A stretch of DNA of 45,692 bases from Candidatus Saccharibacteria bacterium RIFCSPHIGHO2_12_FULL_41_12. Its GTDB lineage: Bacteria > Patescibacteriota > Saccharimonadia > Saccharimonadales > 2-12-FULL-41-12. The stretch covers positions 33,799 through 79,490 of the forward strand of contig MGCQ01000009.1 in assembly GCA_001790445.1 (NCBI GenBank). Reading direction: 5' to 3'. The notes below the pieces were generated by a model. It made no database searches. It was not told the DNA's origin and saw only the letters and a program-made list of their open reading frames with translations. Positions 5,299 to 33,883 of this stretch are shown piece after piece. Every line of letters begins with the position of its first letter. Position 1 is the stretch's first letter. The position numbers were made by a program, and so were the translations under genes.

Positions 5299-5736
5299 AT
5301 GTCTGGGCAACGACCAAGCAAAAAACAATTTGAAATCATAAATTTCATAGATGTGTTTATCAAACAACATGGGTATGGACCAAGCTACCGTGAAGTTATG
5401 AGCGGGCTGGGTTATTCATCAGTGGCGACCGTATCTGTGCACATCAATAATCTAATTACCAAAGGTCTTTTGACGAAGAAAGACCACAGCGCACGTTCTC
5501 TTTCTGTGGTTAAAAGCGATGGTCCAACAGTCCTGCCAACAAATCAAATAGAGTCAAAAGACGAAAAGTGGCTAGTTGATAAAATCGAATACTTTTTCCG
5601 CCTGGCAGAGGATTTGCCTGATCAGGACCAGGTAGATAACCTCTATGTTTTAATTGGTGCTTTGAAAGTGCTTGGGCTCAATGAAGCAGCGCAATCCTTC
5701 ATGCCAAGATTGTCCGAACTTAAGAAGCGAGTATAA
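5299..5736 (+). CDS. LexA-type winged-helix DNA-binding protein without an S24 peptidase domain
   Basis: The N-terminus KKQFEIINFIDVFIKQHGYGPSYREVMSGLGYSSVATVSVHINNLITKGLLTKKDHSARSLSVV aligns by eye with the E. coli LexA DNA-binding domain. The remaining ~70 aa are too short and lack Ser/Lys protease motifs. Confidence 0.7.
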   Translation: MSGQRPSKKQFEIINFIDVFIKQHGYGPSYREVMSGLGYSSVATVSVHINNLITKGLLTKKDHSARSLSVVKSDGPTVLPTNQIESKDEKWLVDKIEYFFRLAEDLPDQDQVDNLYVLIGALKVLGLNEAAQSFMPRLSELKKRV

Positions 5737-5923: not shown

Positions 5924-6727
5924 ATGGACTTACTTCAGGCAGTTTTATTAGGGATTATTGAGGGGCTTACAGAGTTTTTGCCAATATCTAGTACAGGACA
6001 TCTTATAGTTGCGGAAGATCTGGTTGGCTATAAAGATACAGCAGAAATTTTCACTGTGGTTATTCAAATGGGGGCGATAGCCGCGGTTTTGTGGTTTTAT
6101 CGACTTGATTTGGTTAAAAAAACACAGGGACTTCTTAAAAGAGATGAAAAAACAATAAAGTTCTGGATTAATTGGGTGGTTGCTACGATCCCAGCAATTG
6201 TTTTTGGTTTGGCGTTCAAAGATATTATAGGTGAATACGCTGTTTCGTTAACGGTTGGCATAGCTTTGGTTGTCGGAGGTATTATTATTTGGCTAATAGA
6301 AAATTATCACAAGGCTTCCAAAAACACAGGCGACGCAAAGCTCGACGAGCTGACATTAACACAATCGTTCAAAGTAGGTTTGTTTCAGGTTTTAGCCTTG
6401 ATCCCAGGGGTTTCTAGGAGTGGAGCGACTATTATGGGCGGATTGCTCTCTGGACTTGATCGAGTTACGGCGACGGCTTTTTCATTTTATTTAAGTATTC
6501 CAGTAATTATTCTGGCGGGGTCATATCAGTTGATAAAAGGACATAGTGAGCTAGGCACAGTATCTGGAGGGCCAATGGCTATCGTTGCAGGTACAGTCGT
6601 ATCATTTTTCGTAGCATTATTTTCAATAAAATGGTTACTCCACTATGTGTCGAGAAATGACTTTAAGTTCTTTGCTTACTACCGTATATTTGTAGGATTG
6701 TTGATCATATTCGCGATAATTATTTGA
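5924..6727 (+). CDS. uppP: Undecaprenyl-diphosphate phosphatase
   Basis: The 267-268 aa multi-TM protein has EGLTEFLPISSTGHL near the N-terminus and PGVSRSGATI, both hallmark BacA/UppP motifs. An alternative GTG start lies at 5921. Confidence 0.93.
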   Translation: MDLLQAVLLGIIEGLTEFLPISSTGHLIVAEDLVGYKDTAEIFTVVIQMGAIAAVLWFYRLDLVKKTQGLLKRDEKTIKFWINWVVATIPAIVFGLAFKDIIGEYAVSLTVGIALVVGGIIIWLIENYHKASKNTGDAKLDELTLTQSFKVGLFQVLALIPGVSRSGATIMGGLLSGLDRVTATAFSFYLSIPVIILAGSYQLIKGHSELGTVSGGPMAIVAGTVVSFFVALFSIKWLLHYVSRNDFKFFAYYRIFVGLLIIFAIII

Positions 6728-6768
6728 GTGCAGTAGTGTGGTAAAAAGTACCTTTGACGCTACTGGTA

Positions 6769-6910
6769 GCGTAAAGATATACTAAAAGTACTTTAAAATT
6801 ATGAGCTGGAATCCTGTGCAATTCAGGAACTGTGCCGCAACGGTAATCCGTTCTTCGCGTAAAGCTTCGAAGGACAGTAAGTCCGATACAGCGAATCTTA
6901 CGTTAAAGCC
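6769..6910 (+). promoter_or_regulatory. Cobalamin (B12) riboswitch-like leader
   Basis: 6808-6846 reads GGAAUCCUGUGCAAUUCAGGAACUGUGCCGCAACGGUAA. This matches the conserved core as I remember it from E. coli btuB (GGAAUCCAGUGCGAAUCUGGAGCUGACGCGCAGCGGUAA). GAAGG lies at 6869-6873, and a B12-box-like AAGUCCGAUACAGC lies at 6879-6892. Candidate P1 pairings are 6769-6778 with 6895-6903, or 6793-6798 with 6904-6909. No covariance-model search was run. Confidence 0.6.
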
Positions 6911-6967
6911 TCTCGAGCAAGAGCAGTCCATGCGACTTCTCCGCTTTACTAAAGAGAAATAAACAAC

Positions 6968-8518
6968 ATGGAAGCATTAGAACAAAAACCACCAGCATTA
7001 GCAGAGTATCAACCAGGTTTGGTGCCTGATTTTATGGGGCCTGATTTTACAGTTATTTCAGGTGGCGGTGAGTCAACGCCACACGCTGGGTCGCTAGAGC
7101 TTGTTGCCCCTAATGAAAGCCGCCTGCTTGGTGATGTAGATGATCTGGCGCGATATAGACTAGGTGATGGCTCATATGAGCCACATGCTGAGGTAAGCGT
7201 ATGGCAGAGCAAGGTAACTGCTGTTCAAGAAGGAGCAATGCCGAACGCAATCTCAAATGTAGAACACCTATGGTTTGCGCGACCTGAGGGCACAGGCGGA
7301 AGAATTATGAATTTGGGTAGAACAGCCGTAGAGACTGCGATGAGGGGTTCCATGTACTATAAAAGTCCTGAGACGCAAGCTCGAGGTGATGTTGAGGTAG
7401 AACAGGCTAGACATCAAGAAAACACTTTAAGACCAGGTTATGCGCAGATTATGATATCTCCAAGGATGACCCTAAAAGATGCAACTCTTGAAGTTGCCAA
7501 GGCAGAGGGCCTAGCAGAAACAGATTCAATCCAGGTTGGCTGGCTTGATACTAAGTCAGATGAACAGCCAAAAGCAGTTACAAATTGCCTGTTAGCCCCA
7601 GATGTCCCTATACAGGCTTGGGTAAAAATGTTCGCCGATGAGGACAATATATTTGGTAAATCTATTACTGTTGAAGATCCTGAGTCAGCTTTGTCAGTTA
7701 TGAAGTGCTTCAATGAGCTAGAAGTGCCAGTCGATAAACTACCAGAAGGACCGCTGACTATTCTCGCAGAGGTGGTGTCGTACATAGAAGATCCTATCGC
7801 GCGTCAAAAAGTCACAGATCATGTAGGGACATTTCGTAAAAGCGACCAGCAAGAATTAAAAGAATTAGCAACCGGTCCCGCCAAGAGATGGGTGAAGTTT
7901 GATAAATCGACAGAGCAGAGTCTGAGGAAGGGTTATGCAAATGATGAGATTAGGGGCTTTATTGATAGTCTAGACGGTAGTTGGAATGATGAGGATCAAG
8001 AGACAGTTGAGAGACACAAGATAGTTGATAATAGTAGTGTTGGGTATCTGATGACCCGCGAATTAGCAGAAATAGTGCAAAAAGCTGAAGAGAATCTTAT
8101 ACTAACCACAACGGCTGTTATGGTTAAAAACGAGAAAGTTATAGCTCAGATAGAACCAGAAGTAGTAAAGATAATTCGTGCAAGAGAGACAGCAGTTCAA
8201 CAAGCTCAAATGGCAAACGCACAGATTCATTTTTATGAAATCAATCAGCACAATATTAATAGAACCATAGCTAGTCAGAAAGTTAGGGTTGGTGGGGGTT
8301 GTAATGGCGAAAACAATGCATTCGGGAATAGTACACAAGGGGAAACAGAAGTTGAGATGAGCTGGGGAGTATCTCTTAACAGCAGTAGTACAAGAGGCAG
8401 AAGAGATAGGCGCGGTCTACTTAAATTCAAGTGCCAAAATGGCCACCCAAACACCAGAGATTACGGTGAATTGATAGAGAATTGTACTACTTGTGGCAAA
8501 AGAGTAAAATGCAAATAG
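6968..8518 (+). CDS. Orphan 516-aa soluble protein with a C-terminal zinc-ribbon-like motif
   Basis: Long uninterrupted ORF directly downstream of the riboswitch-like leader. The C-terminus is KFKCQNGHPNTRDYGELIENCTTCGKRVKC (C-x3-H ... C-x2-C). No family recognised and no TM helices. Confidence 0.8.
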   Translation: MEALEQKPPALAEYQPGLVPDFMGPDFTVISGGGESTPHAGSLELVAPNESRLLGDVDDLARYRLGDGSYEPHAEVSVWQSKVTAVQEGAMPNAISNVEHLWFARPEGTGGRIMNLGRTAVETAMRGSMYYKSPETQARGDVEVEQARHQENTLRPGYAQIMISPRMTLKDATLEVAKAEGLAETDSIQVGWLDTKSDEQPKAVTNCLLAPDVPIQAWVKMFADEDNIFGKSITVEDPESALSVMKCFNELEVPVDKLPEGPLTILAEVVSYIEDPIARQKVTDHVGTFRKSDQQELKELATGPAKRWVKFDKSTEQSLRKGYANDEIRGFIDSLDGSWNDEDQETVERHKIVDNSSVGYLMTRELAEIVQKAEENLILTTTAVMVKNEKVIAQIEPEVVKIIRARETAVQQAQMANAQIHFYEINQHNINRTIASQKVRVGGGCNGENNAFGNSTQGETEVEMSWGVSLNSSSTRGRRDRRGLLKFKCQNGHPNTRDYGELIENCTTCGKRVKCK

Positions 8519-9031
8519 ATGAGTGCGATTGGGATTTTTACTGGAGCATTTGACCCTATTCATAGTGGTCACCTGGCTTTTGCACATAAAGCTTTAAATC
8601 TGAGTCTGGATAAAATTTATTTTTTGCCTGAGCCTAAACCCAGAATGAAACCAAATGTATCTGATCTAGATGATCGCATATCAAAATTAAATAAAGCGAC
8701 AGAACAAGACTCTAGACTCGGGGTTATTAAGCTAAAACAAAATAATTTTGAAGTTCAAAGCGTATTGAGTGAGCTAAATCAGATATTTCCAGATAGCAAG
8801 TTTGTATTTCTGTTCGGTGATGACGTGCTTGATCATTTAGCCAATTGGAAAGATCTAGATATTTTCGCAAAAGAGACAGAGTTTTTGATAGCGACACGAA
8901 ATAATTCTATTGGACAGATCAGTAATGTTTTTAAAGATTTCAAATTGCAGGGCTTAGGGTTTAATTACCAAATTATTGAACTTAATGAGGGTATATCTTC
9001 TACAGAAATACGTAGCCGAGATACTAATTAA
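8519..9031 (+). CDS. nadD: NadD-like nucleotidyltransferase (nicotinate-nucleotide adenylyltransferase family)
   Basis: GAFDPIHSGHL matches the (H/T)xGH motif and ISSTEIR matches the ISSTxxR motif. The ATG directly abuts the TAG of the upstream 516-aa ORF. Confidence 0.75.
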   Translation: MSAIGIFTGAFDPIHSGHLAFAHKALNLSLDKIYFLPEPKPRMKPNVSDLDDRISKLNKATEQDSRLGVIKLKQNNFEVQSVLSELNQIFPDSKFVFLFGDDVLDHLANWKDLDIFAKETEFLIATRNNSIGQISNVFKDFKLQGLGFNYQIIELNEGISSTEIRSRDTN

Positions 9032-29299: not shown

Positions 29300-31435
29300 T
29301 TATTTTTTCTTTTCACTCATTCCTGTAGTGGAGTCGGTTTTTGTTTTGACTACTTTTTTCTTTGGCTTTTCTTTGATCTTGGTTGTGGCTACCGGTATGG
29401 AGAAGCTAAATGTGCTACCAACGCCTTCCTCAGATTTTTCTAGGGCGATATTGCCTCCCATATTTTCTACAATCATTTTGGAGATGTACAGACCCAGCCC
29501 CGTGCCACGAGTAGTGTCGCGGGTGATTAGGCTGTCACCAGCTTGCTGGAATTTATGAAACAAGAGTTGCTGTGATTCTGATGACATGCCATGACCTGTA
29601 TCTTCAACAAATATTTTGACAAATTTGTCATTTGCCTCTGCCCGAATAGTTATCCCTCCTTTTTCAGTAAATTTAGTAGCATTACCAACCAGATTATAGA
29701 CAACTTGTTTTAGGCGATTTTTGTCAGCCCAGACTTTTGGCAAAGTGTCGAGAGTTAGCTTTTCTACCGTTATCTGAAGGTGTCTATTGGCCATTTCTTC
29801 TTTCATTTCATAAGCGACTTTTTCAATAACTTCCTGTAAATTGACAGCTTCATAGTCATAACTTACTTTGCCTTGTTCAAGGCGCGATATGTCTAAGAAA
29901 TCGTTGACAATATCTATTAAGCGGACAGAACTTTCGTGGACATCTGCCACCATTTCTTTAAGAGTGTCGTCTTTTAATATTTCTTTGTAGTAATCCATGA
30001 TCATACTGCTGTTACCCTTTATGGCCGTCAACGGGGTTCTCAGTTCATGTGAAGCGATAGAAAAAAACTCATCTTTTGAACGTTCCATGACTTTTTGTTC
30101 GGTGATTTCTTCTATAAGTACTACCGTCCCTATAATCTTGTCCAGCTTTGCGATAACCGGAGCGCCAAAAATACTGAGGATATGATTACCATAAGTGGCT
30201 TCTTTGATTTCAAAAGGCTTGCCATCTTTTTGGCATGTGGCAATGGCTTCATTTAAATTATGTTTTTTTATTTGTTGAAGTTTTTGTTGTATCTGGGCTA
30301 AGGTAACGCTTGCTCCGACTTTTCTGCTAGATAATGCTGTGTCACGCAGCCCTAGAATATTAATCAAGGCCGGGTTGTATGAAATATTATCGCGGTCGTT
30401 AAATGTCATTAGTAGTCCAACGTTTAGCCCATCAATTGCCGAACTAAGACGGGCTTTTTCTTCTGTGATTTCAAGAGTACGTTCGATAACTTGTTTTTCA
30501 ATCTCTTTCTTGCTGGATTGTTCTGTATTAATCAGACGACCTTGTTGCATAATTCGTCCGACAGTGTACATTACGATAAGAATCGTGCTCAAGAAAACCC
30601 CTAAAATCACGAGCATATAAAAAAACAAGGTATGTTGTGCTTGCTGGAAAATGCTCCTAGGAGCTTCGACATGTGCAACAAGTAAAGGCTTTCCGTATAT
30701 ATCGTTGATTACTTGATATCCAGATATAAGTTGGTTGCCAGTGGTTTGTATTCGGGCAGAGTCGTCCGAAGTGTTATCAGCCTCTGGAGTTTTGGCTCCA
30801 CTAGCATCAATTGCTGGGTCGAATTTTAAATTGAGGTGGGTTAGCTCACCGAGCTTGGCTACGTTTTCTTGCTTGAGGTAACGTGCAAAGACAAGGGTGC
30901 CACGCACAGGCCCAGATTCATCGCTCCGCAATATAGGACTAGACGAAATAATCAATGGATAAGCAGAAGTGTTGATTAGTCCACTATGTTCTTCATCTTT
31001 TGTCTTTGCCAATAGACTACTATTTGGGGCAAAAGCTTTTGAGAGCTCTTGTGGCAAGGGTATATTCTCCCCATTCTCGGTATTAATACCTGCAGAGAAG
31101 ACTAGACGTTGATTATCGTCATAAAAAAGCACAAAGTTGATTTTTAAATTCTGCAGGCTTGCGCTTTGAACATTCGATATTATGTAGGCATTATTACGAT
31201 CTTTTATAAATTTGTAGGTATCATCCCATGATGACCAATCAGGTGTCTTTTGGGCCAGCTGATTAACTTCGTTGTTTAGAGCATCAACCCCCCGAGAAGT
31301 ATCTTGTTTGGTATTGTTGGCTTCAATCGCGACGTATTTAGATTGGACAAGAGTAATGGTTGCAACCCAGGTGGCTACGGCAGCAACTAAAAAAACAAAA
31401 CAAACAATGCCAAATATTTTTGACTGTACTTTCAT
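29300..31435 (-). CDS. Sensor histidine kinase with a large extracytoplasmic sensor domain
   Basis: 711 aa. Two TM helices flank a ~250-aa ectodomain, followed by a PAS-like region, the H-box SHELRTPLTAI, and N/G boxes (NLVGNATKFT, DTGHGM, GTGLGL). No response regulator is present in the window. Confidence 0.9.
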   Translation of the reverse strand: MKVQSKIFGIVCFVFLVAAVATWVATITLVQSKYVAIEANNTKQDTSRGVDALNNEVNQLAQKTPDWSSWDDTYKFIKDRNNAYIISNVQSASLQNLKINFVLFYDDNQRLVFSAGINTENGENIPLPQELSKAFAPNSSLLAKTKDEEHSGLINTSAYPLIISSSPILRSDESGPVRGTLVFARYLKQENVAKLGELTHLNLKFDPAIDASGAKTPEADNTSDDSARIQTTGNQLISGYQVINDIYGKPLLVAHVEAPRSIFQQAQHTLFFYMLVILGVFLSTILIVMYTVGRIMQQGRLINTEQSSKKEIEKQVIERTLEITEEKARLSSAIDGLNVGLLMTFNDRDNISYNPALINILGLRDTALSSRKVGASVTLAQIQQKLQQIKKHNLNEAIATCQKDGKPFEIKEATYGNHILSIFGAPVIAKLDKIIGTVVLIEEITEQKVMERSKDEFFSIASHELRTPLTAIKGNSSMIMDYYKEILKDDTLKEMVADVHESSVRLIDIVNDFLDISRLEQGKVSYDYEAVNLQEVIEKVAYEMKEEMANRHLQITVEKLTLDTLPKVWADKNRLKQVVYNLVGNATKFTEKGGITIRAEANDKFVKIFVEDTGHGMSSESQQLLFHKFQQAGDSLITRDTTRGTGLGLYISKMIVENMGGNIALEKSEEGVGSTFSFSIPVATTKIKEKPKKKVVKTKTDSTTGMSEKKK

Positions 31436-31767: not shown

Positions 31768-32745
31768 TTAGTTTGCGCGGGATTGTTGACGTTTCTTTTT
31801 GATAAATATGTATGCGGTTGCTAAGACGGCACCGACTCCCAATACGCCAACAATGATAATTAGCTTGATTAAGCCGTTTGATCGCTTTGCGGCGGTAGTG
31901 CTGGCAACTTTGTCCTGGGTTTTTTCTGCCTCCTTGACGGCAAATTTCAGTATTTCAATTTTTGATGATGTTTTTTTGGTGGTTGGGTCGGTCACCTCAG
32001 CCTCAGCATGGTGATTCCCAACAGGCAGCCCAATCACAGACAAAGTCCATTTACCCTGAGCATCAGCGGTTACGCTAAATTTCTTTGGCTGGGAATAGAC
32101 ATATATGGTAACTATTCCGTTTGGTATGGTCGTGCCGGTAAAAACTATCGGTTTATCCTGTGTGGTAGTAAAGGTATCTTTGACTTTTGCCAACGGCTGA
32201 CTGTTAATTTGCACTTGGGTCATGTCGAGTGGTTTAGTTTCTGTTTGTTGAGTTGTGGTAGTTGAAGGAGTTGTTGAGCTAGGCCTGGATGTTGAAGTGT
32301 TGGTTGTTGTTGAAGGAGCGGGTGTAGGCGTTGGAGCAGGAGGTGGCACAGTAAACGTCACAGTTCCGGTGTTTTGTACGTTTCCATAAGTACAATGTAC
32401 GAAATTAATAGTTTTGGTTTCTGCTACAGTTGACTTAATAGTAAAATAGGTATACCCATCAGAGCCGGTATTAGCTGTATTTGACGACAGGGTATTACCG
32501 CTACCTGATACATTAAGGCATATTGGATAATCAGGGATTACTACAAATGGTCCATTTTCTGGGTATACGCCTATGGTTATGGTCGAGACTCCGTCGGCTG
32601 GTGCTGGTGATCCAACTGTTTTACCGATTGTGGGCAAATATCCACCAGCACCCTTTACGGTGTTGCTGCCGACTGTTAACGAGAGAGCCACAATTACAAA
32701 CGAAGATAAAATACAAACGACCGATAATAGTAATATTTTTTTCAT
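31768..32745 (-). CDS. Cell-surface protein: signal peptide, Ig-like domains, Thr/Pro-rich linker and a C-terminal TM anchor
   Basis: The start is placed at MKKILLLSVV (ATG complement 32743-32745). The track's extension to 32820 runs into the IS terminal repeat. The linker reads PPPAPTPTPAPSTTTNTSTSRPSSTTPSTTTTQQ, and the C-terminus is LIIIVGVLGVGAVLATAYIFIKKKR. Confidence 0.7.
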   Translation of the reverse strand: MKKILLLSVVCILSSFVIVALSLTVGSNTVKGAGGYLPTIGKTVGSPAPADGVSTITIGVYPENGPFVVIPDYPICLNVSGSGNTLSSNTANTGSDGYTYFTIKSTVAETKTINFVHCTYGNVQNTGTVTFTVPPPAPTPTPAPSTTTNTSTSRPSSTTPSTTTTQQTETKPLDMTQVQINSQPLAKVKDTFTTTQDKPIVFTGTTIPNGIVTIYVYSQPKKFSVTADAQGKWTLSVIGLPVGNHHAEAEVTDPTTKKTSSKIEILKFAVKEAEKTQDKVASTTAAKRSNGLIKLIIIVGVLGVGAVLATAYIFIKKKRQQSRAN

Positions 32746-32807
32746 TTTTGTTTTAATTAATCTTACGTATAACTTATACCATAAAAAAATCCCAACAGTC
32801 AAGCGAT

Positions 32808-33883
32808 TGTGGAGGTTCAATACATCGAGGACACTTCTATACCTAGTTTGGCCTTGTATTCATTTGGTGTCAAGTAGTTCAAAGACTGGTGGGGTCGGTA
32901 ACTATGGTATTTGTCTAGCCATTGATCAATAATCTGTTGTTGGTCTGCTAGGTCAGTAGCGACTCCACCCCACTGGAGACATTCACGCTCCAAACTACCA
33001 ATAACCCTCTCAACATGGGGTTTGTCTTTGGGGGTGTGTGGTCGAGCCCAGTAGTGTTTGGTTGGCTGAGATTCTAGGAGTGATGCAAATGCACCCATGT
33101 TCTCACTGCCATTGTCGGTTAGAACTGCCTGCGGTGGTAGTCCAAGTTTGTGTACAGCTTTCTTCCAAGCTATTACACCCTGGGCACTGGAAATAGTGCT
33201 AGCTACATGGACAACGGTCTCTTTACTCACAACATCAATGACTACAAAACCATAGCGTTTGGTGCCAGTATTCGGTAGATGTTTCACATCTACCTCAACT
33301 AGGTCTCTTGGTTGGGTGGCTACGAATCCCTTGGGTTTACGGATTCGCTTAATGCTTTGTCTGCGTCCTGGGTGACCTTTGGGTCTCACTGGAGGAGTAA
33401 AGAAAAGATTGTACCGAGTAATAACTCGGCCAACTGTGGAGGCACTCAGTGAGTAGCCATAGTCACGTTTTAGGATAACAGCTAGTTTGTATTTGGAGTA
33501 TTCAGGGTTGGCTTTTCGGAGGAAGCGAACTGTACTTAAGACTTCTTGGGGTACGAGCGACTTACGTACATGCTTTGGTCTTGTGCTAAGGGTCTCCAGC
33601 CCTGCAATACCTTGGGTATTAAATCTTTTCAGCCATTTGTAGAAACAACTCTTGGCAATACCGTAGTGACGACAAGTTAGCATAGCGTCATTACTGTGTT
33701 GGTGGTAGTAGTCTATCCATGACAAGCGAAGCTTTGCTTCTTTACTTAATGAAATAGTAGTACGGATACTACCTAGTCCTGGCACTAACGTGCCAATACA
33801 GGTCTGCGACCCGATCTTTCTAGCCATATGAGAACCTCCTCTAGTTTAGTCTAGAGTGTTCTCGATGTGTTTGAACCTGGACA
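32808..33883 (-). mobile_element. IS481-family insertion sequence, apparently intact, with a 5-bp target-site duplication
   Basis: The terminal inverted repeats are TGTGGAGGTTCAATACATCGAGGACACT (32808-) and the reverse complement of the right end, TGTCCAGGTTCAAACACATCGAGAACACT (ending 33883). GCGAT directly flanks both ends (32803-32807 and 33884-33888). A single transposase ORF lies inside. Confidence 0.8.
32817..33827 (-). CDS. IS481-family DDE transposase (HTH plus rve integrase core)
   Basis: 336 aa. N-terminal HTH region (CRHYGIAKSCFYKWLKRF), DDE core (VEVDVKH..., LTDNGSEN, HVERVIGSLERE) and a C-terminal YHSYRPHQSLNYLTP motif. Confidence 0.9.
   Translation of the reverse strand: MARKIGSQTCIGTLVPGLGSIRTTISLSKEAKLRLSWIDYYHQHSNDAMLTCRHYGIAKSCFYKWLKRFNTQGIAGLETLSTRPKHVRKSLVPQEVLSTVRFLRKANPEYSKYKLAVILKRDYGYSLSASTVGRVITRYNLFFTPPVRPKGHPGRRQSIKRIRKPKGFVATQPRDLVEVDVKHLPNTGTKRYGFVVIDVVSKETVVHVASTISSAQGVIAWKKAVHKLGLPPQAVLTDNGSENMGAFASLLESQPTKHYWARPHTPKDKPHVERVIGSLERECLQWGGVATDLADQQQIIDQWLDKYHSYRPHQSLNYLTPNEYKAKLGIEVSSMY

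What the first reader, a model, noticed from the sequence alone, without database searches (positions are those of the whole stretch)
6754..9031. Cobalamin-riboswitch-like leader controlling an orphan 516-aa zinc-ribbon protein fused to a NadD-like gene
**What the sequence shows.** The 240-bp spacer after uppP contains a stretch (6808-6846) that matches the invariant core of cobalamin riboswitches almost position for position. It is followed by GAAGG and a B12-box-like AAGUCCGAUACAGC (6879-6892), and closing P1 helices are plausible.

The 3' P1 strand UUAAAG(C) could alternatively pair with GCUUUA at 6942-6947, just before the AAAGAGAAA ribosome-binding region. That is what a translational expression platform would look like. 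A TTGACG-18 nt-TATACT promoter candidate lies at 6754-6783.

**Why it is unusual.** The first regulated gene is not a B12 transporter, metE or a ribonucleotide reductase. It is a 516-aa soluble protein I cannot assign to any family, ending in a C-x3-H...C-x2-C ribbon. Its stop codon directly abuts the ATG of a NadD-like nucleotidyltransferase.

In a reduced genome that probably cannot make B12, a B12-sensing switch on an unknown protein suggests an undescribed B12-responsive function. Possibilities are a B12-independent substitute enzyme, a cofactor-salvage or remodelling step, or a binding protein.
Basis: partly seen in the sequence, partly recalled or inferred. Interest (0 to 1): 0.72.

Follow-up and report, generated by a model that had tools for sequence, protein, structure and literature searches.

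The report
B12 riboswitch guarding an orphan gene
A genuine vitamin-B12-sensing RNA switch precedes a protein of unknown fold; across the ultrasmall Patescibacteria this protein always carries the switch and often sits beside the B12-dependent ribonucleotide reductase and its cofactor-loading enzyme, pointing to an undescribed part of how these bacteria cope with B12 scarcity.

Summary
Window 6791-6923 is a class-II-type cobalamin riboswitch: a P3-P6 four-way junction, a B12 box and a P13 hairpin.

- **Rfam score.** The window's own score is just under threshold (RF01689, 33.6 vs 36.5 bits). A 39-nt insert in P6 misleads the alignment.
- **Conservation.** The same element precedes every homologue of the 516-aa ORF ("X516") that I could examine: all 39 related loci retrieved via the protein (L001-L039) plus further metagenome loci, with no counter-example.
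- **Covariation.** 12 of 19 pairs show double changes, and 97.9% of cells are paired against 81% in shuffles.
- **Mechanism.** It is an OFF switch. P13 competes with an antiterminator/anti-sequestor. In the window, only translation is affected.
- **X516.** It has no Pfam, NCBIfam, PDB-sequence or Foldseek relative, despite a confident model (pLDDT 84.7).
- **Superfamily.** X516 belongs to a Patescibacteria-wide superfamily sharing an S-P strand motif, a Gly-Cys loop and a C-terminal Cys ribbon.
- **Gene context.** In the sister branch the gene sits in a conserved cluster: NrdR, class II RNR, (DUF4430, DUF6580), PduO adenosyltransferase, riboswitch, X. In one Saccharibacteria locus the order is NrdJ, CobA, riboswitch, X516.
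- **NadD-like neighbour.** It is syntenic, not obligatory.

Most likely X516 is a B12-starvation-induced accessory of corrinoid salvage or AdoCbl supply. Its biochemistry is unknown.

The parts
6754..6783 (+). Candidate sigma-70-type promoter: TTGACG, 18-nt spacer, TATACT
   Evidence: Consensus scan gives 10 of 12 matches. The orthologous leaders have a conserved extended -10 (TGcTAtaaT) at the equivalent position, about 8 nt before the conserved 5' TTAACAA. Function is inferred.
6791..6908 (+). Cobalamin riboswitch aptamer (class-II-type). P1 pairs 6791-6796 with 6903-6908. P3 pairs 6805-6808 with 6889-6892. P4 pairs 6812-6816 with 6824-6828, with L4 at 6817-6823. P5/L5 spans 6831-6839. P6 pairs 6841-6843 with 6883-6885.
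   Evidence: Helices verified base by base. RNAalifold and the count of structure pairs show compensatory changes in P3, P4 and P6. RF01689 scores 33.6 bits. The family model R1 scores 95.2 bits.
6844..6882 (+). Variable insert capping P6, a local hairpin. It contains the decoy UAAAGC and the non-conserved GAAGG.
   Evidence: Insert length ranges from 0 to about 130 nt among orthologues. It folds alone at -8.7 kcal/mol. It explains the misalignment and sub-threshold Rfam score.
6879..6892 (+). B12 box AAGUCCGAUACAGC: the 3' strand of P6, then J6/3, then the 3' strand of P3
   Evidence: Invariant or near-invariant columns. Column 61/103 covaries, GC in 19 sequences and UA in 10.
6910..6923 (+). 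P13 hairpin (CUCU pairing with AGAG) with L13 loop CGAGCA at 6914-6919. It is the putative kissing-loop partner of L5 UGCCG at 6833-6837.
   Evidence: The stem covaries: CG/UA at three of four pairs. The loop is conserved even upstream of unrelated downstream genes. The L5-L13 kissing loop is common to all Cbl classes (PMC7367189). The kissing loop itself is inferred.
6915..6946 (+). Anti-sequestor helix of the ligand-free state. GAGC 6915-6918 pairs with GCUU 6943-6946. GAG 6921-6923 pairs with CUC 6939-6941. AGUC 6925-6928 pairs with GACU 6934-6937. It is mutually exclusive with P13.
   Evidence: Constrained folding gives -10.0 kcal/mol against -5.7 for the P13 plus sequestor state. The same loop-plus-3'-strand invasion is seen in nearly all orthologous platforms.
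6927..6972 (+). Sequestor of the ligand-bound state. UCCAUG 6927-6932 pairs with CAUGGA 6967-6972, which includes the start codon. UUCUC 6937-6941 pairs with GAGAA 6954-6958, the SD-like AAAGAG region.
   Evidence: With the aptamer and P13 enforced, P(unpaired) of the AUG falls from 0.47 to 0.03. In silico only. There is no U-run, so the effect is translational rather than a terminator.
6968..8518 (+). X516, an orphan 516-aa soluble protein. Invariant residues include E88, R139, E143, S164-P165, D171, D186, W218, Q294 and G442-G-G-C445. The C-terminal Cys/His ribbon (C489, H493, C506, C509, C515) is degenerate.
   Evidence: ORF list. 56 homologues, all Saccharibacteria/Patescibacteria hypotheticals. 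Invariant residues from the alignment. AF2 pLDDT 84.7 and pTM 0.79. No PDB or BFVD fold match. No Pfam, NCBIfam or PDB sequence match. No TM segment or signal peptide.
8519..9031 (+). NadD-like nucleotidyltransferase, with HSGH and ISSTEIR motifs. Its ATG abuts the X516 stop codon.
   Evidence: Pfam CTP_transf_like at 4.7e-15. NCBIfam NadD equivalogs score below cut-off, TIGR00482 at 90.5 vs 112.45. Motifs confirmed. Adjacency is variable among orthologues.

Best explanation
**The RNA (shown and inferred)**
- Window 6791-6923 is a functional-looking class-II-type cobalamin riboswitch. It acts as an OFF switch on the 516-aa gene X516.
- Shown: the four-way junction P3-P6, the B12 box and the P13 hairpin are conserved and covary. 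The element precedes every X516-type gene examined.
- Inferred mechanism: corrinoid binding docks L13 (CGAGCA) onto L5 (UGCCG) and locks P13.
  - With P13 locked, the downstream strand cannot invade it. The sequestor then forms.
  - In most orthologues the sequestor is a GC-rich hairpin containing the SD (GAGGG), followed by a U-run and the AUG. That gives termination plus SD masking.
  - In the window, UCCAUG pairs with the start codon and UUCUC pairs with the SD-like AAAGAG. That affects translation only.
  - Without B12, the loop and 3' strand of P13 pair with the sequestor's 5' strand, and the gene is expressed.

**The protein (inferred, about 45-50% on its own)**
- X516 belongs to a Patescibacteria-wide orphan superfamily that is part of the B12 regulon.
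- It is made only when B12 is scarce and is probably short-lived. About 30% of members end in an ssrA-like AA-COOH tail.
- It most likely acts on or with corrinoids upstream of adenosylation, for example binding, upper-ligand removal, reduction or hand-over to the adenosyltransferase. That would keep the AdoCbl-dependent class II ribonucleotide reductase supplied.
- The invariant Cys in a Gly-rich loop and the C-terminal Cys ribbon are the candidate reactive or metal-binding elements.
For: **RNA**
- RF01689 at 33.6 bits in the window.
- RF00174 or RF01689 above gathering score in 18 of 31 GTDB orthologous loci and in further loci.
- All 31 loci plus the window carry the element; L030 has a variant core.
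- RNAalifold finds 11 of 19 pairs with compensatory changes.
- Structure-pair counts: 97.9% paired vs 81.2% in shuffles, covariation score 0.478 vs 0.171 (0 of 500 shuffles reach it), slid controls 0.04-0.10.
- Loci not used to build the model score 59-95 bits.
- The two-state platform is recovered in nearly all loci.
- The window's AUG accessibility changes from 0.47 to 0.03.
- The kissing loop is a general feature of Cbl riboswitches (PMC7367189). L13 is conserved regardless of the downstream gene.

**Protein-B12 link**
- L030: NrdJ, CobA-type adenosyltransferase, riboswitch, X516.
- Sister branch: NrdR, class II RNR, (DUF4430, DUF6580), PduO adenosyltransferase, riboswitch, X-like gene. Seen in L079, L093, L118, L160, L162 and the P0209 locus (no DNA held for P0209, so its riboswitch was not checked), with L161 as a variant.
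- The same riboswitch type also precedes PduO, DUF4430, DUF6580 and a BtuF-like gene.

**One superfamily**
- hhalign A1 vs A5 gives 99.9% probability.
- P0172 sits in the same syntenic slot and carries the riboswitch.
- The branches share the S-P, G-C and Cys-ribbon architecture and are linked by BLAST chains.
- Invariant residues align in register between the branches.
- The two AF2 models have the same order of secondary-structure elements.

**Turnover**
- AA-COOH tails occur in 43 of 141 members against a 2% background.
Against: - The window's own Rfam score is below the gathering score.
- There are no ligand-binding or expression data. Only DNA metagenome runs hold this sequence.
- The corrinoid form sensed cannot be assigned from sequence.
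- The window's sequestor is weak (-5.7 kcal/mol) and lacks a terminator.
- In the unconstrained fold the SD-like GAG is already largely paired, with P(unpaired) of 0.10-0.14.
- The kissing loop has no covariation support, because both loops are nearly invariant. One variant (the third riboswitch in L161) changes L13 without a matching change in L5.
- For the protein, there is no homology to any corrinoid-binding or corrinoid-processing family and no DxHxxG motif.
- Foldseek gives only non-significant PAS-like hits.
- Among about 40 Saccharimonadia loci, only L030 puts X516 next to NrdJ and an adenosyltransferase.
- The link between the X516 branch and the sister branch rests on a 22.6%-probability hhalign match plus shared architecture.
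- B12-OFF control is equally typical of B12-independent isozymes.
Confidence: 0.72

Rival explanations
1. X516 is a B12-independent substitute for the only B12-dependent function of these cells, dNTP supply by NrdJ. It would be induced when B12 is absent, by the same logic as riboswitch-controlled metE, nrdEF or nrdDG.
For: - OFF-switch logic.
- Adjacency to NrdR and class II RNR.
- In the same metagenome scan, a riboswitch with the same L5/P5 core motif precedes NrdD in L105.
- X keeps its own riboswitch even directly behind a riboswitch-controlled PduO gene, so repression is tight.
- The degron-like tail fits rapid removal.
Against: - A confident model of 280-550 aa with no resemblance to any RNR barrel or glycyl-radical enzyme.
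- No activase or radical-cofactor partner in the neighbourhoods.
- The gene follows the adenosyltransferase and uptake genes, not the RNR itself.
- Known B12-independent RNRs are readily available to these lineages (L105).
Confidence: 0.12
2. X516 is a B12-starvation response factor that does not touch corrinoids. It could be a short-lived regulator or checkpoint protein, using a PAS-like sensor body plus a zinc ribbon, that adjusts replication or growth when NrdJ cannot work.
For: - ssrA-like AA-COOH tails in 30% of members suggest rapid turnover, which is typical of regulators.
- Weak, recurrent PAS/LOV/GAF-like Foldseek hits in two independent models.
- The zinc-ribbon module is portable.
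- In Saccharimonadia the gene is not clustered with B12 genes.
Against: - The invariant acidic and basic residues (E88, R139, E143, D171, D186) and the invariant Cys look catalytic rather than regulatory.
- No DNA-binding or signalling output domain was found.
- Adjacency to two non-homologous adenosyltransferase families points to the adenosylation step.
Confidence: 0.12
3. The window's leader is a decayed, non-functional riboswitch remnant: a sub-threshold Rfam score, a weak sequestor and no terminator.
For: - 33.6 bits is below the 36.5-bit gathering score, and there is no hit in the whole-window scan.
- The OFF-state platform energy is only -5.7 kcal/mol and there is no U-run.
Against: - Every invariant column of the family is intact in the window.
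- All six helices are canonical.
- The R1 score of 95.2 bits is mid-range for the family.
- The low Rfam score is explained by the P6 insert.
- A specific start-codon-sequestering helix appears only in the bound-state proxy.
- Close relatives (L037, L039) keep the element.
Confidence: 0.04
4. The physiologically relevant target is the NadD-like gene, giving B12 control of NAD synthesis, and X516 is merely the first cistron.
For: The stop codon abuts or overlaps the NadD-like start in the window, L007 and L032, and the gap is 25 nt or less in 10 of 20 loci.
Against: - The NadD-like gene is absent downstream in at least 9 Saccharimonadia loci and in the whole sister branch.
- The gap is 100 nt or more in 10 of 20 loci.
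- It has its own AAAGAG SD-like element in the window.
- The window's switch is translational and acts on the X516 start codon.
Confidence: 0.04

Closest known systems
Class II cobalamin riboswitches (Rfam RF01689 AdoCbl-II; env8 HyCbl type, Cbl-IIa/IIb)
   Same: - P3-P6 four-way junction.
- Single-stranded J1/3 instead of a P2 module.
- P6 capped by a loop or a simple hairpin.
- B12 box.
- P13 hairpin positioned for an L5-L13 kissing loop.
- OFF regulation.

   Different: - The P6 cap varies from 0 to about 130 nt, so individual members hit either RF01689 or RF00174.
- The L5 (UGCCG) and L13 (CGAGCA) sequences are specific to Patescibacteria.
- Ligand selectivity, IIa-like versus IIb-like, is unknown.
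Bacillus subtilis yvrC 'hybrid' cobalamin riboswitch (PMC7367189)
   Same: The L5-L13 kissing loop stabilises P13. A following hairpin with a poly-U tract then terminates transcription. Most orthologous leaders here have that arrangement.
   Different: - yvrC has a P2 loop-stem-loop module; this family does not.
- The window's own platform lacks the terminator and instead masks the start codon.
B12-riboswitch-controlled salvage genes (btuF/ECF-type uptake, PduO or CobA adenosyltransferases)
   Same: They are co-regulated by the same riboswitch type and lie adjacent in the genome.
   Different: X516 is soluble, has no similarity to any transporter, binding protein or adenosyltransferase, and has no known fold.
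Cobalamin-processing proteins that use a thiol (eukaryotic CblC/MMACHC; bacterial BtuM). This is an analogy from my own knowledge only.
   Same: X516 has a conserved single Cys that could act on, or ligate, the cobalt upper position. Its presumed role is upstream of adenosylation.
   Different: No sequence or structural relationship was detected. The activity is untested.
NadD (nicotinate-mononucleotide adenylyltransferase), for the downstream gene
   Same: HxGH and ISSTxxR motifs and the CTP_transf_like fold family.
   Different: It scores below all NCBIfam NadD equivalog cut-offs. Its linkage to X516 is variable.

Membership tests
Cobalamin riboswitch clan (Rfam CL00101: RF00174 / RF01689) | Four-way junction of helices P3-P6 supported by covariation | tested here: met
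   P3, P4 and P6 show compensatory changes. P5 is invariant apart from one double change. 97.9% of cells are paired, and the covariation score is 0.478 against 0.171 for shuffles. All helices are canonical in the window.
Cobalamin riboswitch clan (Rfam CL00101: RF00174 / RF01689) | Conserved core nucleotides (GGAA, GGUG.AA.UCC, GCCGCAAC) and the B12 box | tested here: met
   These columns are invariant in 29 leaders, including the window. The window coordinates are 6808-6846 and 6879-6892.
Cobalamin riboswitch clan (Rfam CL00101: RF00174 / RF01689) | Score at or above Rfam's gathering threshold | tested here: inconclusive
   The window scores 33.6 bits against a 36.5-bit threshold, with an alignment misled by the P6 insert. 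Orthologous leaders reach the threshold in 18 of 31 loci, and more were found later.
Cobalamin riboswitch clan (Rfam CL00101: RF00174 / RF01689) | L5-L13 kissing loop linking the aptamer to the expression platform | tested here: inconclusive
   L5 UGCCG is complementary to L13 CG(A)GCA with one bulged base. That bulged base is the position varying in L019 and L027. The P13 stem covaries. Both loops are nearly invariant, so no covariation test is possible, and one variant does not compensate.
Cobalamin riboswitch clan (Rfam CL00101: RF00174 / RF01689) | Direct binding of a corrinoid | not testable with these tools
   This needs in-line probing, ITC or a reporter assay.
Cbl-II architectural class (as defined in PMC7367189) | No P2 loop-stem-loop between P1 and P3, and no P7-P11 extension (P6 capped by a loop or a simple hairpin) | tested here: met
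   The 5' segment before P3 is single-stranded. The P6 cap is the 7-nt loop UUAAAGU in 8 or more loci and a simple hairpin in the others. The class definition is read.
Intrinsic-terminator expression platform | GC-rich hairpin followed by a U-run just before the ORF | tested here: not met
   It is present in most orthologues but absent in the window leader. The only terminator-like site, at 7014-7028, lies inside the ORF. The window is therefore filed as translational control.
NadD (NaMN adenylyltransferase), downstream gene | HxGH and ISSTxxR motifs, plus the NCBIfam equivalog cut-off | tested here: inconclusive
   Both motifs are present and Pfam CTP_transf_like matches at 4.7e-15. TIGR00482 scores 90.5, below its 112.45 cut-off, and the other equivalogs are also below cut-off. 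I call it NadD-like.
Any described protein family or fold, for X516 | A significant match in Pfam, NCBIfam, PDB sequences, or PDB/BFVD structures | tested here: not met
   Pfam returns no family for X516 alone, and no consistent family across 55 members. The best NCBIfam E-value is 0.07. PDB phmmer and hmmsearch give E of 0.27 or worse. The best Foldseek E-values are 0.24 (PDB) and 0.65 (BFVD) for X516, and 0.087 for the sister-branch model.
Zinc ribbon (C-terminal module of X516) | Two CxxC-type knuckles | tested here: inconclusive
   The family consensus is C-x4-C...C-x2-C-x2-C. The window copy is degenerate, with C489-x3-H493...C506-x2-C509...C515, and is modelled at low confidence (pLDDT 41-63). 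Metal content is untested.

The most novel reading that the evidence does not exclude
The X516 superfamily is a previously unknown, B12-independent way of securing deoxynucleotide supply when the AdoCbl-dependent class II reductase is starved of cofactor. It would be a functional replacement for NrdJ with a new fold and chemistry, centred on the invariant Gly-rich-loop cysteine and the Cys ribbon. This would explain the dedicated B12-OFF switch, the placement in nrdR-nrdJ clusters and the tight, degron-assisted shut-off.
Probability: 0.07. Interest if true: 0.95.

Novelty: new variant of a known kind. Interest (0 to 1): 0.68.

Why it matters
**1. A candidate missing step in B12 salvage.** Patescibacteria (CPR) cannot make B12, yet rely on an AdoCbl-dependent ribonucleotide reductase. 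How they obtain and process the cofactor is undescribed. I found no paper linking Saccharibacteria or Patescibacteria to cobalamin riboswitches. A conserved orphan protein is wired into the B12 regulon and physically linked to the adenosyltransferase and NrdJ. That makes it a concrete, testable candidate for a missing salvage or processing step, or for a bypass.

**2. An unannotated protein family.** The protein has a confidently predicted fold with no known relative. It offers either a new corrinoid-handling chemistry or a new type of starvation response.

**3. A possible genetic tool.** The riboswitch is a compact, natural, ligand-responsive OFF switch native to Saccharibacteria. A recent perspective names riboswitches as a wanted tool for controlling gene expression in these organisms, which are only now becoming genetically tractable (PMC11665869).

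**4. An annotation lesson.** The riboswitch is missed at Rfam's gathering threshold in the window and in 13 of 31 orthologous loci. B12 regulons in CPR genomes are therefore systematically under-annotated.

Tried and rejected
- **Whole-window Rfam scan at gathering threshold.** It found only three tRNAs. The riboswitch needed the permissive scan.
- **Infernal's own AdoCbl-II alignment in the window (6790-6865).** Rejected as the true boundaries, because it pairs P1 and P3 with a decoy inside the P6 insert. Orthologue alignment fixes the 3' half at 6879-6908.
- **Plain MFE folding of the leader.** Uninformative, with z = -0.48.
- **A family-wide closing P1 helix.** Not supported; mean z is -0.19.
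Possible at -38.7 kcal/mol, but not the conserved mechanism.
- **My first set of helix coordinates.** They were 1-2 nt off on the 5' strands and were corrected.
- **The search for related loci with the 55-sequence alignment.** It failed because no stretch was conserved enough. It worked with 12 sequences.
- **Homology searches for X516.** Pfam, NCBIfam, PDB phmmer and hmmsearch, per-member Pfam, and Foldseek against PDB and BFVD on two models gave nothing significant.
- **Search for NrdJ, CobA, PduO, DUF4430, DUF6580 and NrdR in the window and the Saccharimonadia loci.** They occur only in L030.
- **RNA-seq evidence.** Only DNA metagenome runs (groundwater and soil) hold the sequence.
- **Kissing-loop covariation.** No informative variation was found.
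- **Literature.** There is no prior description of this riboswitch-gene pair.

Full report
**1. What is in the window**

- Rfam at gathering threshold finds only three tRNAs in the whole window.
- A permissive scan of 6700-7000 gives RF01689 (AdoCbl-II) at 33.6 bits. The gathering score is 36.5 and E = 2e-6.
- That alignment closes the aptamer on a UAAAGC lying inside a 39-nt insertion. Comparison with orthologues shows this is a decoy.
- The organism is an uncultured groundwater member of the Saccharibacteria.

**2. The RNA is real and conserved**

The 516-aa protein ("X516") has 56 homologues among 5.8 billion clusters. All come from Saccharibacteria/Patescibacteria and all are unannotated.

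I fetched 31 loci from different GTDB species.
- 18 carry an RF00174 or RF01689 hit above the gathering score, on the gene's strand, 100-300 nt upstream.
- The 8-mer GCCGCAAC lies upstream in 30 of 31 loci. The exception, L030, has the element with a variant core, GCCGCUAC.

The shared architecture runs as follows:
- an extended -10 promoter;
- the conserved 5' TTAACAA;
- P3;
- GGAA;
- P4, with GGUG.AA.UCC;
- P5/L5, CUGUGCCGCAAC;
- the B12 box AAGUCCGAUACAGC;
- a linker;
- a hairpin CUCC-CGAGCA-GGAG (P13);
- the expression platform.

Covariation evidence:
- RNAalifold on a MAFFT alignment of 29 leaders predicts 19 pairs, 11 with compensatory changes.
- A covariance model built from that alignment finds exactly one copy in each of 32 sources and nothing else in 297 kb.
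- On the model-based alignment, 97.9% of cells pair, against 81.2% in shuffles.
- 12 of 19 pairs carry double changes.
- The covariation score is 0.478, against 0.171 in shuffles (0 of 500 reach it) and 0.04-0.10 for structures slid by 1-3 columns.
- Loci not used for model building score 59-95 bits.

All six helices in the window are canonical:

| Helix | 5' strand | 3' strand |
|---|---|---|
| P1 | 6791-6796 | 6903-6908 |
| P3 | 6805-6808 | 6889-6892 |
| P4 | 6812-6816 | 6824-6828 |
| P5 | 6831-6833 | 6837-6839 |
| P6 | 6841-6843 | 6883-6885 |
| P13 | 6910-6913 | 6920-6923 |

A closing P1 exists in the window but is not statistically supported across the family.

By the architectural definitions quoted in PMC7367189, the element is class-II-like. 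It has no P2 module and no P7-P11 extension. Ligand selectivity cannot be read from the sequence.

**3. How the switch most likely works**

The P13 stem covaries while its loop, CGAGCA, is nearly invariant. The loop stays the same in riboswitches preceding unrelated genes, whose downstream sequences differ. That argues for a tertiary contact rather than mere antiterminator complementarity.
- L5 (UGCCG) is complementary to L13 (CG-A-GCA) with one bulged base. That bulged position is the one that varies in L019 and L027.
- An L5-L13 kissing loop is common to all cobalamin riboswitch classes (PMC7367189).
- This step is inferred. There is no covariation to test it.

Downstream, most orthologues have a hairpin CCCUCGCUC...GAGCGAGGG whose 3' strand contains the SD (GAGGG). 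A U-run and the AUG follow.
- When the SD is forced open, the best fold in nearly every locus pairs the loop and 3' strand of P13 (CGAGCAGG) with the 5' strand of that hairpin.
- The two states have comparable energies.
- Ligand-locked P13 therefore gives a terminator/sequestor (OFF). Free P13 gives an antiterminator (ON).

The window differs. It has no U-run and only a weak sequestor.
- With the aptamer and P13 enforced, UCCAUG (6927-6932) pairs with CAUGGA (6967-6972), and UUCUC pairs with the SD-like GAGAA.
- Start-codon accessibility falls from 0.47 to 0.03.
- In the free state, these bases are held in the anti-sequestor helix, which spans 6915-6946.
- This is in silico only.
- The promoter TTGACG-18-TATACT (6754-6783) is detected. 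It aligns with the conserved -10 of the orthologues.

**4. The regulated protein**

X516 is soluble. Its maximum 19-residue hydropathy is 0.99, and it has no signal peptide. Its invariant residues include E88, R139, E143, M167, D171, D186, W218, Q294 and G442/G444/C445 of the GGGC motif; S164-P165 is conserved in at least 90% of members.

Its AlphaFold model is confident, with pLDDT 84.7, pTM 0.79 and residues 50-445 mostly above 90. It has no significant relative by any method:

| Search | Best result |
|---|---|
| Foldseek vs PDB | E = 0.24 |
| Foldseek vs BFVD | E = 0.65 |
| Pfam | no family |
| NCBIfam | E = 0.07 |
| PDB sequences | E of 0.27 or worse |

An exhaustive profile search of 1.84 billion representatives finds only 292 proteins.

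That search also reveals about 500-aa proteins that match only the C-terminal module, WKWKKGxCxVxxCxTRPGxTxVGPCxVCxxCQxxFDxGxDPTK.
- These are diverged positional orthologues. P0172 lies in the same slot, LexA-like then gene then DsbA-like(-) then CBS.
- The loci encoding P0172 and P0184 both carry the riboswitch.
- hhalign gives 99.9% probability over 404 columns.

**5. A wider superfamily and its genomic company**

I scanned JGI metagenomes for the invariant core CTGTGCCGCAACNGT and filtered the results with the model. This gave 36 riboswitch hits in 35 loci.
- Downstream genes include X516-type genes (L069, L048, L061).
- They include classic B12-regulon genes: a BtuF-like binding protein, DUF4430, NrdD and a PduO adenosyltransferase.
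- They also include ORFs with no Pfam match, most of which share X516's layout. That layout is an S-P-(P)-G strand motif, a Gly-Cys motif (GGSCGG, TGCG and similar) and a C-terminal CxxC...CxxC ribbon.
- BLAST chains link these ORFs to each other and to P0172.

The best-sampled sister branch (P0199-P0222, "Patescibacteria group bacterium") has sharp invariants.
- Its hhalign match to X516 is weak (22.6% probability, E = 9e-4).
- That match nevertheless puts the invariant Glu, Arg, Glu and the conserved Ser-Pro of both branches in register.
- Its AF2 model (pLDDT 76.7) has the same order of secondary-structure elements and again no PDB match.

In this branch the gene sits in a conserved cluster: NrdR, (DUF6941), class II RNR with a TSCPD domain, (NUDIX), (DUF4430, DUF6580/ECF-S-like), PduO adenosyltransferase, X-like gene. 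A riboswitch precedes X in every member for which DNA was held.
- The cluster is seen in L079, L093, L118, L160, L162 and the P0209 locus (gene table only; no DNA was held, so its riboswitch was not checked), with L161 as a variant.
- Riboswitches precede PduO and X separately in L093 and L160.
- They precede DUF6580, DUF4430 and the X operon in L161.

In Saccharibacteria, one locus (L030) reads NrdJ, CobA-type adenosyltransferase, riboswitch, X516. So X-type genes adjoin two non-homologous adenosyltransferase families in different lineages.

In the other roughly 40 Saccharimonadia loci, the neighbourhood is a conserved housekeeping backbone without B12 genes.

**6. The NadD-like gene**

The downstream gene has HxGH and ISSTxxR motifs and matches Pfam CTP_transf_like. 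It scores below the NCBIfam NadD cut-offs.
- It follows X516 in 20 loci. Gaps range from -4 to 214 nt: 10 loci have 25 nt or less, and 10 have 100 nt or more.
- It is missing in at least 9 Saccharimonadia loci, where a convergent gene follows. It is also missing in the sister branch.
- It is therefore a syntenic neighbour, co-transcribed in some genomes including the window, and not a defining partner.

**7. Interpretation**

Firmly supported:
- A cobalamin riboswitch OFF switch is dedicated to an orphan protein superfamily across Patescibacteria.
- That superfamily belongs to the B12 regulon.

Inferred (about 45-50%):
- The protein acts in corrinoid handling upstream of adenosylation, or in supplying NrdJ, and is needed only under scarcity.

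Supporting hints:
- Co-regulation and adjacency with uptake and adenosylation genes.
- An invariant Cys on a Gly-rich loop, plus a Cys ribbon.
- Recurrent but non-significant PAS-like ligand-binding resemblance.
- AA-COOH tails in 43 of 141 members against a 2% background, p of about 6e-38. They resemble ssrA-type degrons (my own knowledge) and suggest rapid removal once B12 returns.

Rivals:
- A B12-independent bypass of NrdJ (about 12% in any form, about 7% for a genuinely new chemistry).
- A non-corrinoid starvation regulator (about 12%).
- A decayed element in this particular genome (about 4%).
- NadD as the real target (about 4%).

**8. Novelty**

The riboswitch class is known. Its presence in Patescibacteria, and this target, are not described in the searchable literature. 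The regulated protein family is unannotated and has no known fold relative. I rate the whole as a new variant of a known kind, a B12 regulon with an undescribed core component, with an interest score of 0.68.

Noticed in passing
Protein family (P0001-P0198); e.g. P0036 ...ALAA, P0037 ...TLAA, P0003 ...KKAA: 43 of 141 full-length family members end in AA-COOH (LAA, TAA, VAA, KAA), against 2% of other ORFs in the same loci (p about 6e-38). The tail resembles an ssrA/ClpXP-type degron. The window's own X516 ends ...RVKCK and lacks it.
   Followed up: partly
C-terminus of X516 homologues; P0172, P0175, P0184, P0195; P0183 and P0193: The Cys-rich module WKWKKGxCxVxxCxTRPGxTxVGPCxVCxxCQxxFDxGxDPTK is far better conserved than the protein body. 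It also appears as 68-92-aa stand-alone predicted proteins, which may be fragments. The window copy (residues 487-516) is a degenerate version.
   Followed up: partly
L161:5213-8386: A third riboswitch in this locus controls a three-gene operon: a PP-loop ATPase-like gene (Pfam Diphthami_syn_2), a 287-aa unknown and the X-like gene. Both this ATPase and the NadD-like neighbour in Saccharibacteria are nucleotide-alpha-hydrolase-type ATP users. This may be coincidence or a hint of an adenylation step.
   Followed up: no
window 6784-6800 and the equivalent positions in L001-L031: The leaders share a conserved extended -10 (TGcTAtaaT) followed about 8 nt later by a conserved TTAACAA, which is ACTTTAAAA in the window. 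This conserved 5' end does not form a statistically supported P1, and its role is unexplained. It could relate to the transcription start, the J1/3 ligand contact or a protein site.
   Followed up: partly
window 5299-5736 (+), and 25 orthologous loci: A 145-aa protein with only a LexA DNA-binding domain, and no S24 peptidase domain, is conserved one or two genes upstream of the riboswitch throughout Saccharimonadia. It also precedes the diverged P0172-type genes.
   Followed up: no
L093, L160, L161, L162 and the P0209 locus, downstream of the X-like gene: In the sister branch, the X-like gene is followed by a small unknown ORF and a roughly 790-aa TrwB/TraG-like coupling ATPase (DUF8128). In the four loci with DNA a tRNA gene and a tyrosine integrase lie just beyond; they are not seen in the P0209 gene table. 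This arrangement recurs across several distinct members (30-78% identical) and may mark an integrative-element boundary next to the nrd-B12 cluster.
   Followed up: no
L037:4365-5800: In a close relative of the window organism, three riboflavin-related genes (flavokinase, a lumazine-binding/riboflavin-synthase-like gene, and DMRL synthase) are inserted between the LexA-like gene and the riboswitch. In the window, uppP occupies that position.
   Followed up: no
window 32820-33827 (-): An IS-type transposase (rve integrase core plus HTH domains) lies next to a Big_1/Big_13 Ig-domain protein (31771-32820) and a CHASE4 histidine kinase (29303-31435). It is the only obvious mobile element in the window.
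   Followed up: no
window 6801-6962 (+) and 7014-7028 (+): A 53-aa ORF overlaps the riboswitch and is almost certainly spurious. A terminator-like hairpin with a T-run sits 46 nt inside the X516 ORF (CAGGTTTGGTGCCTG ATTTTATGGG) and is probably a chance match.
   Followed up: no
L079:4822-5346, L161:2081-2614, P0209 locus: DUF6580 is a membrane protein with weak similarity to ECF-transporter S components. It is riboswitch-controlled and sits next to DUF4430 and PduO in these clusters. It is a good candidate for the Patescibacteria corrinoid importer.
   Followed up: no
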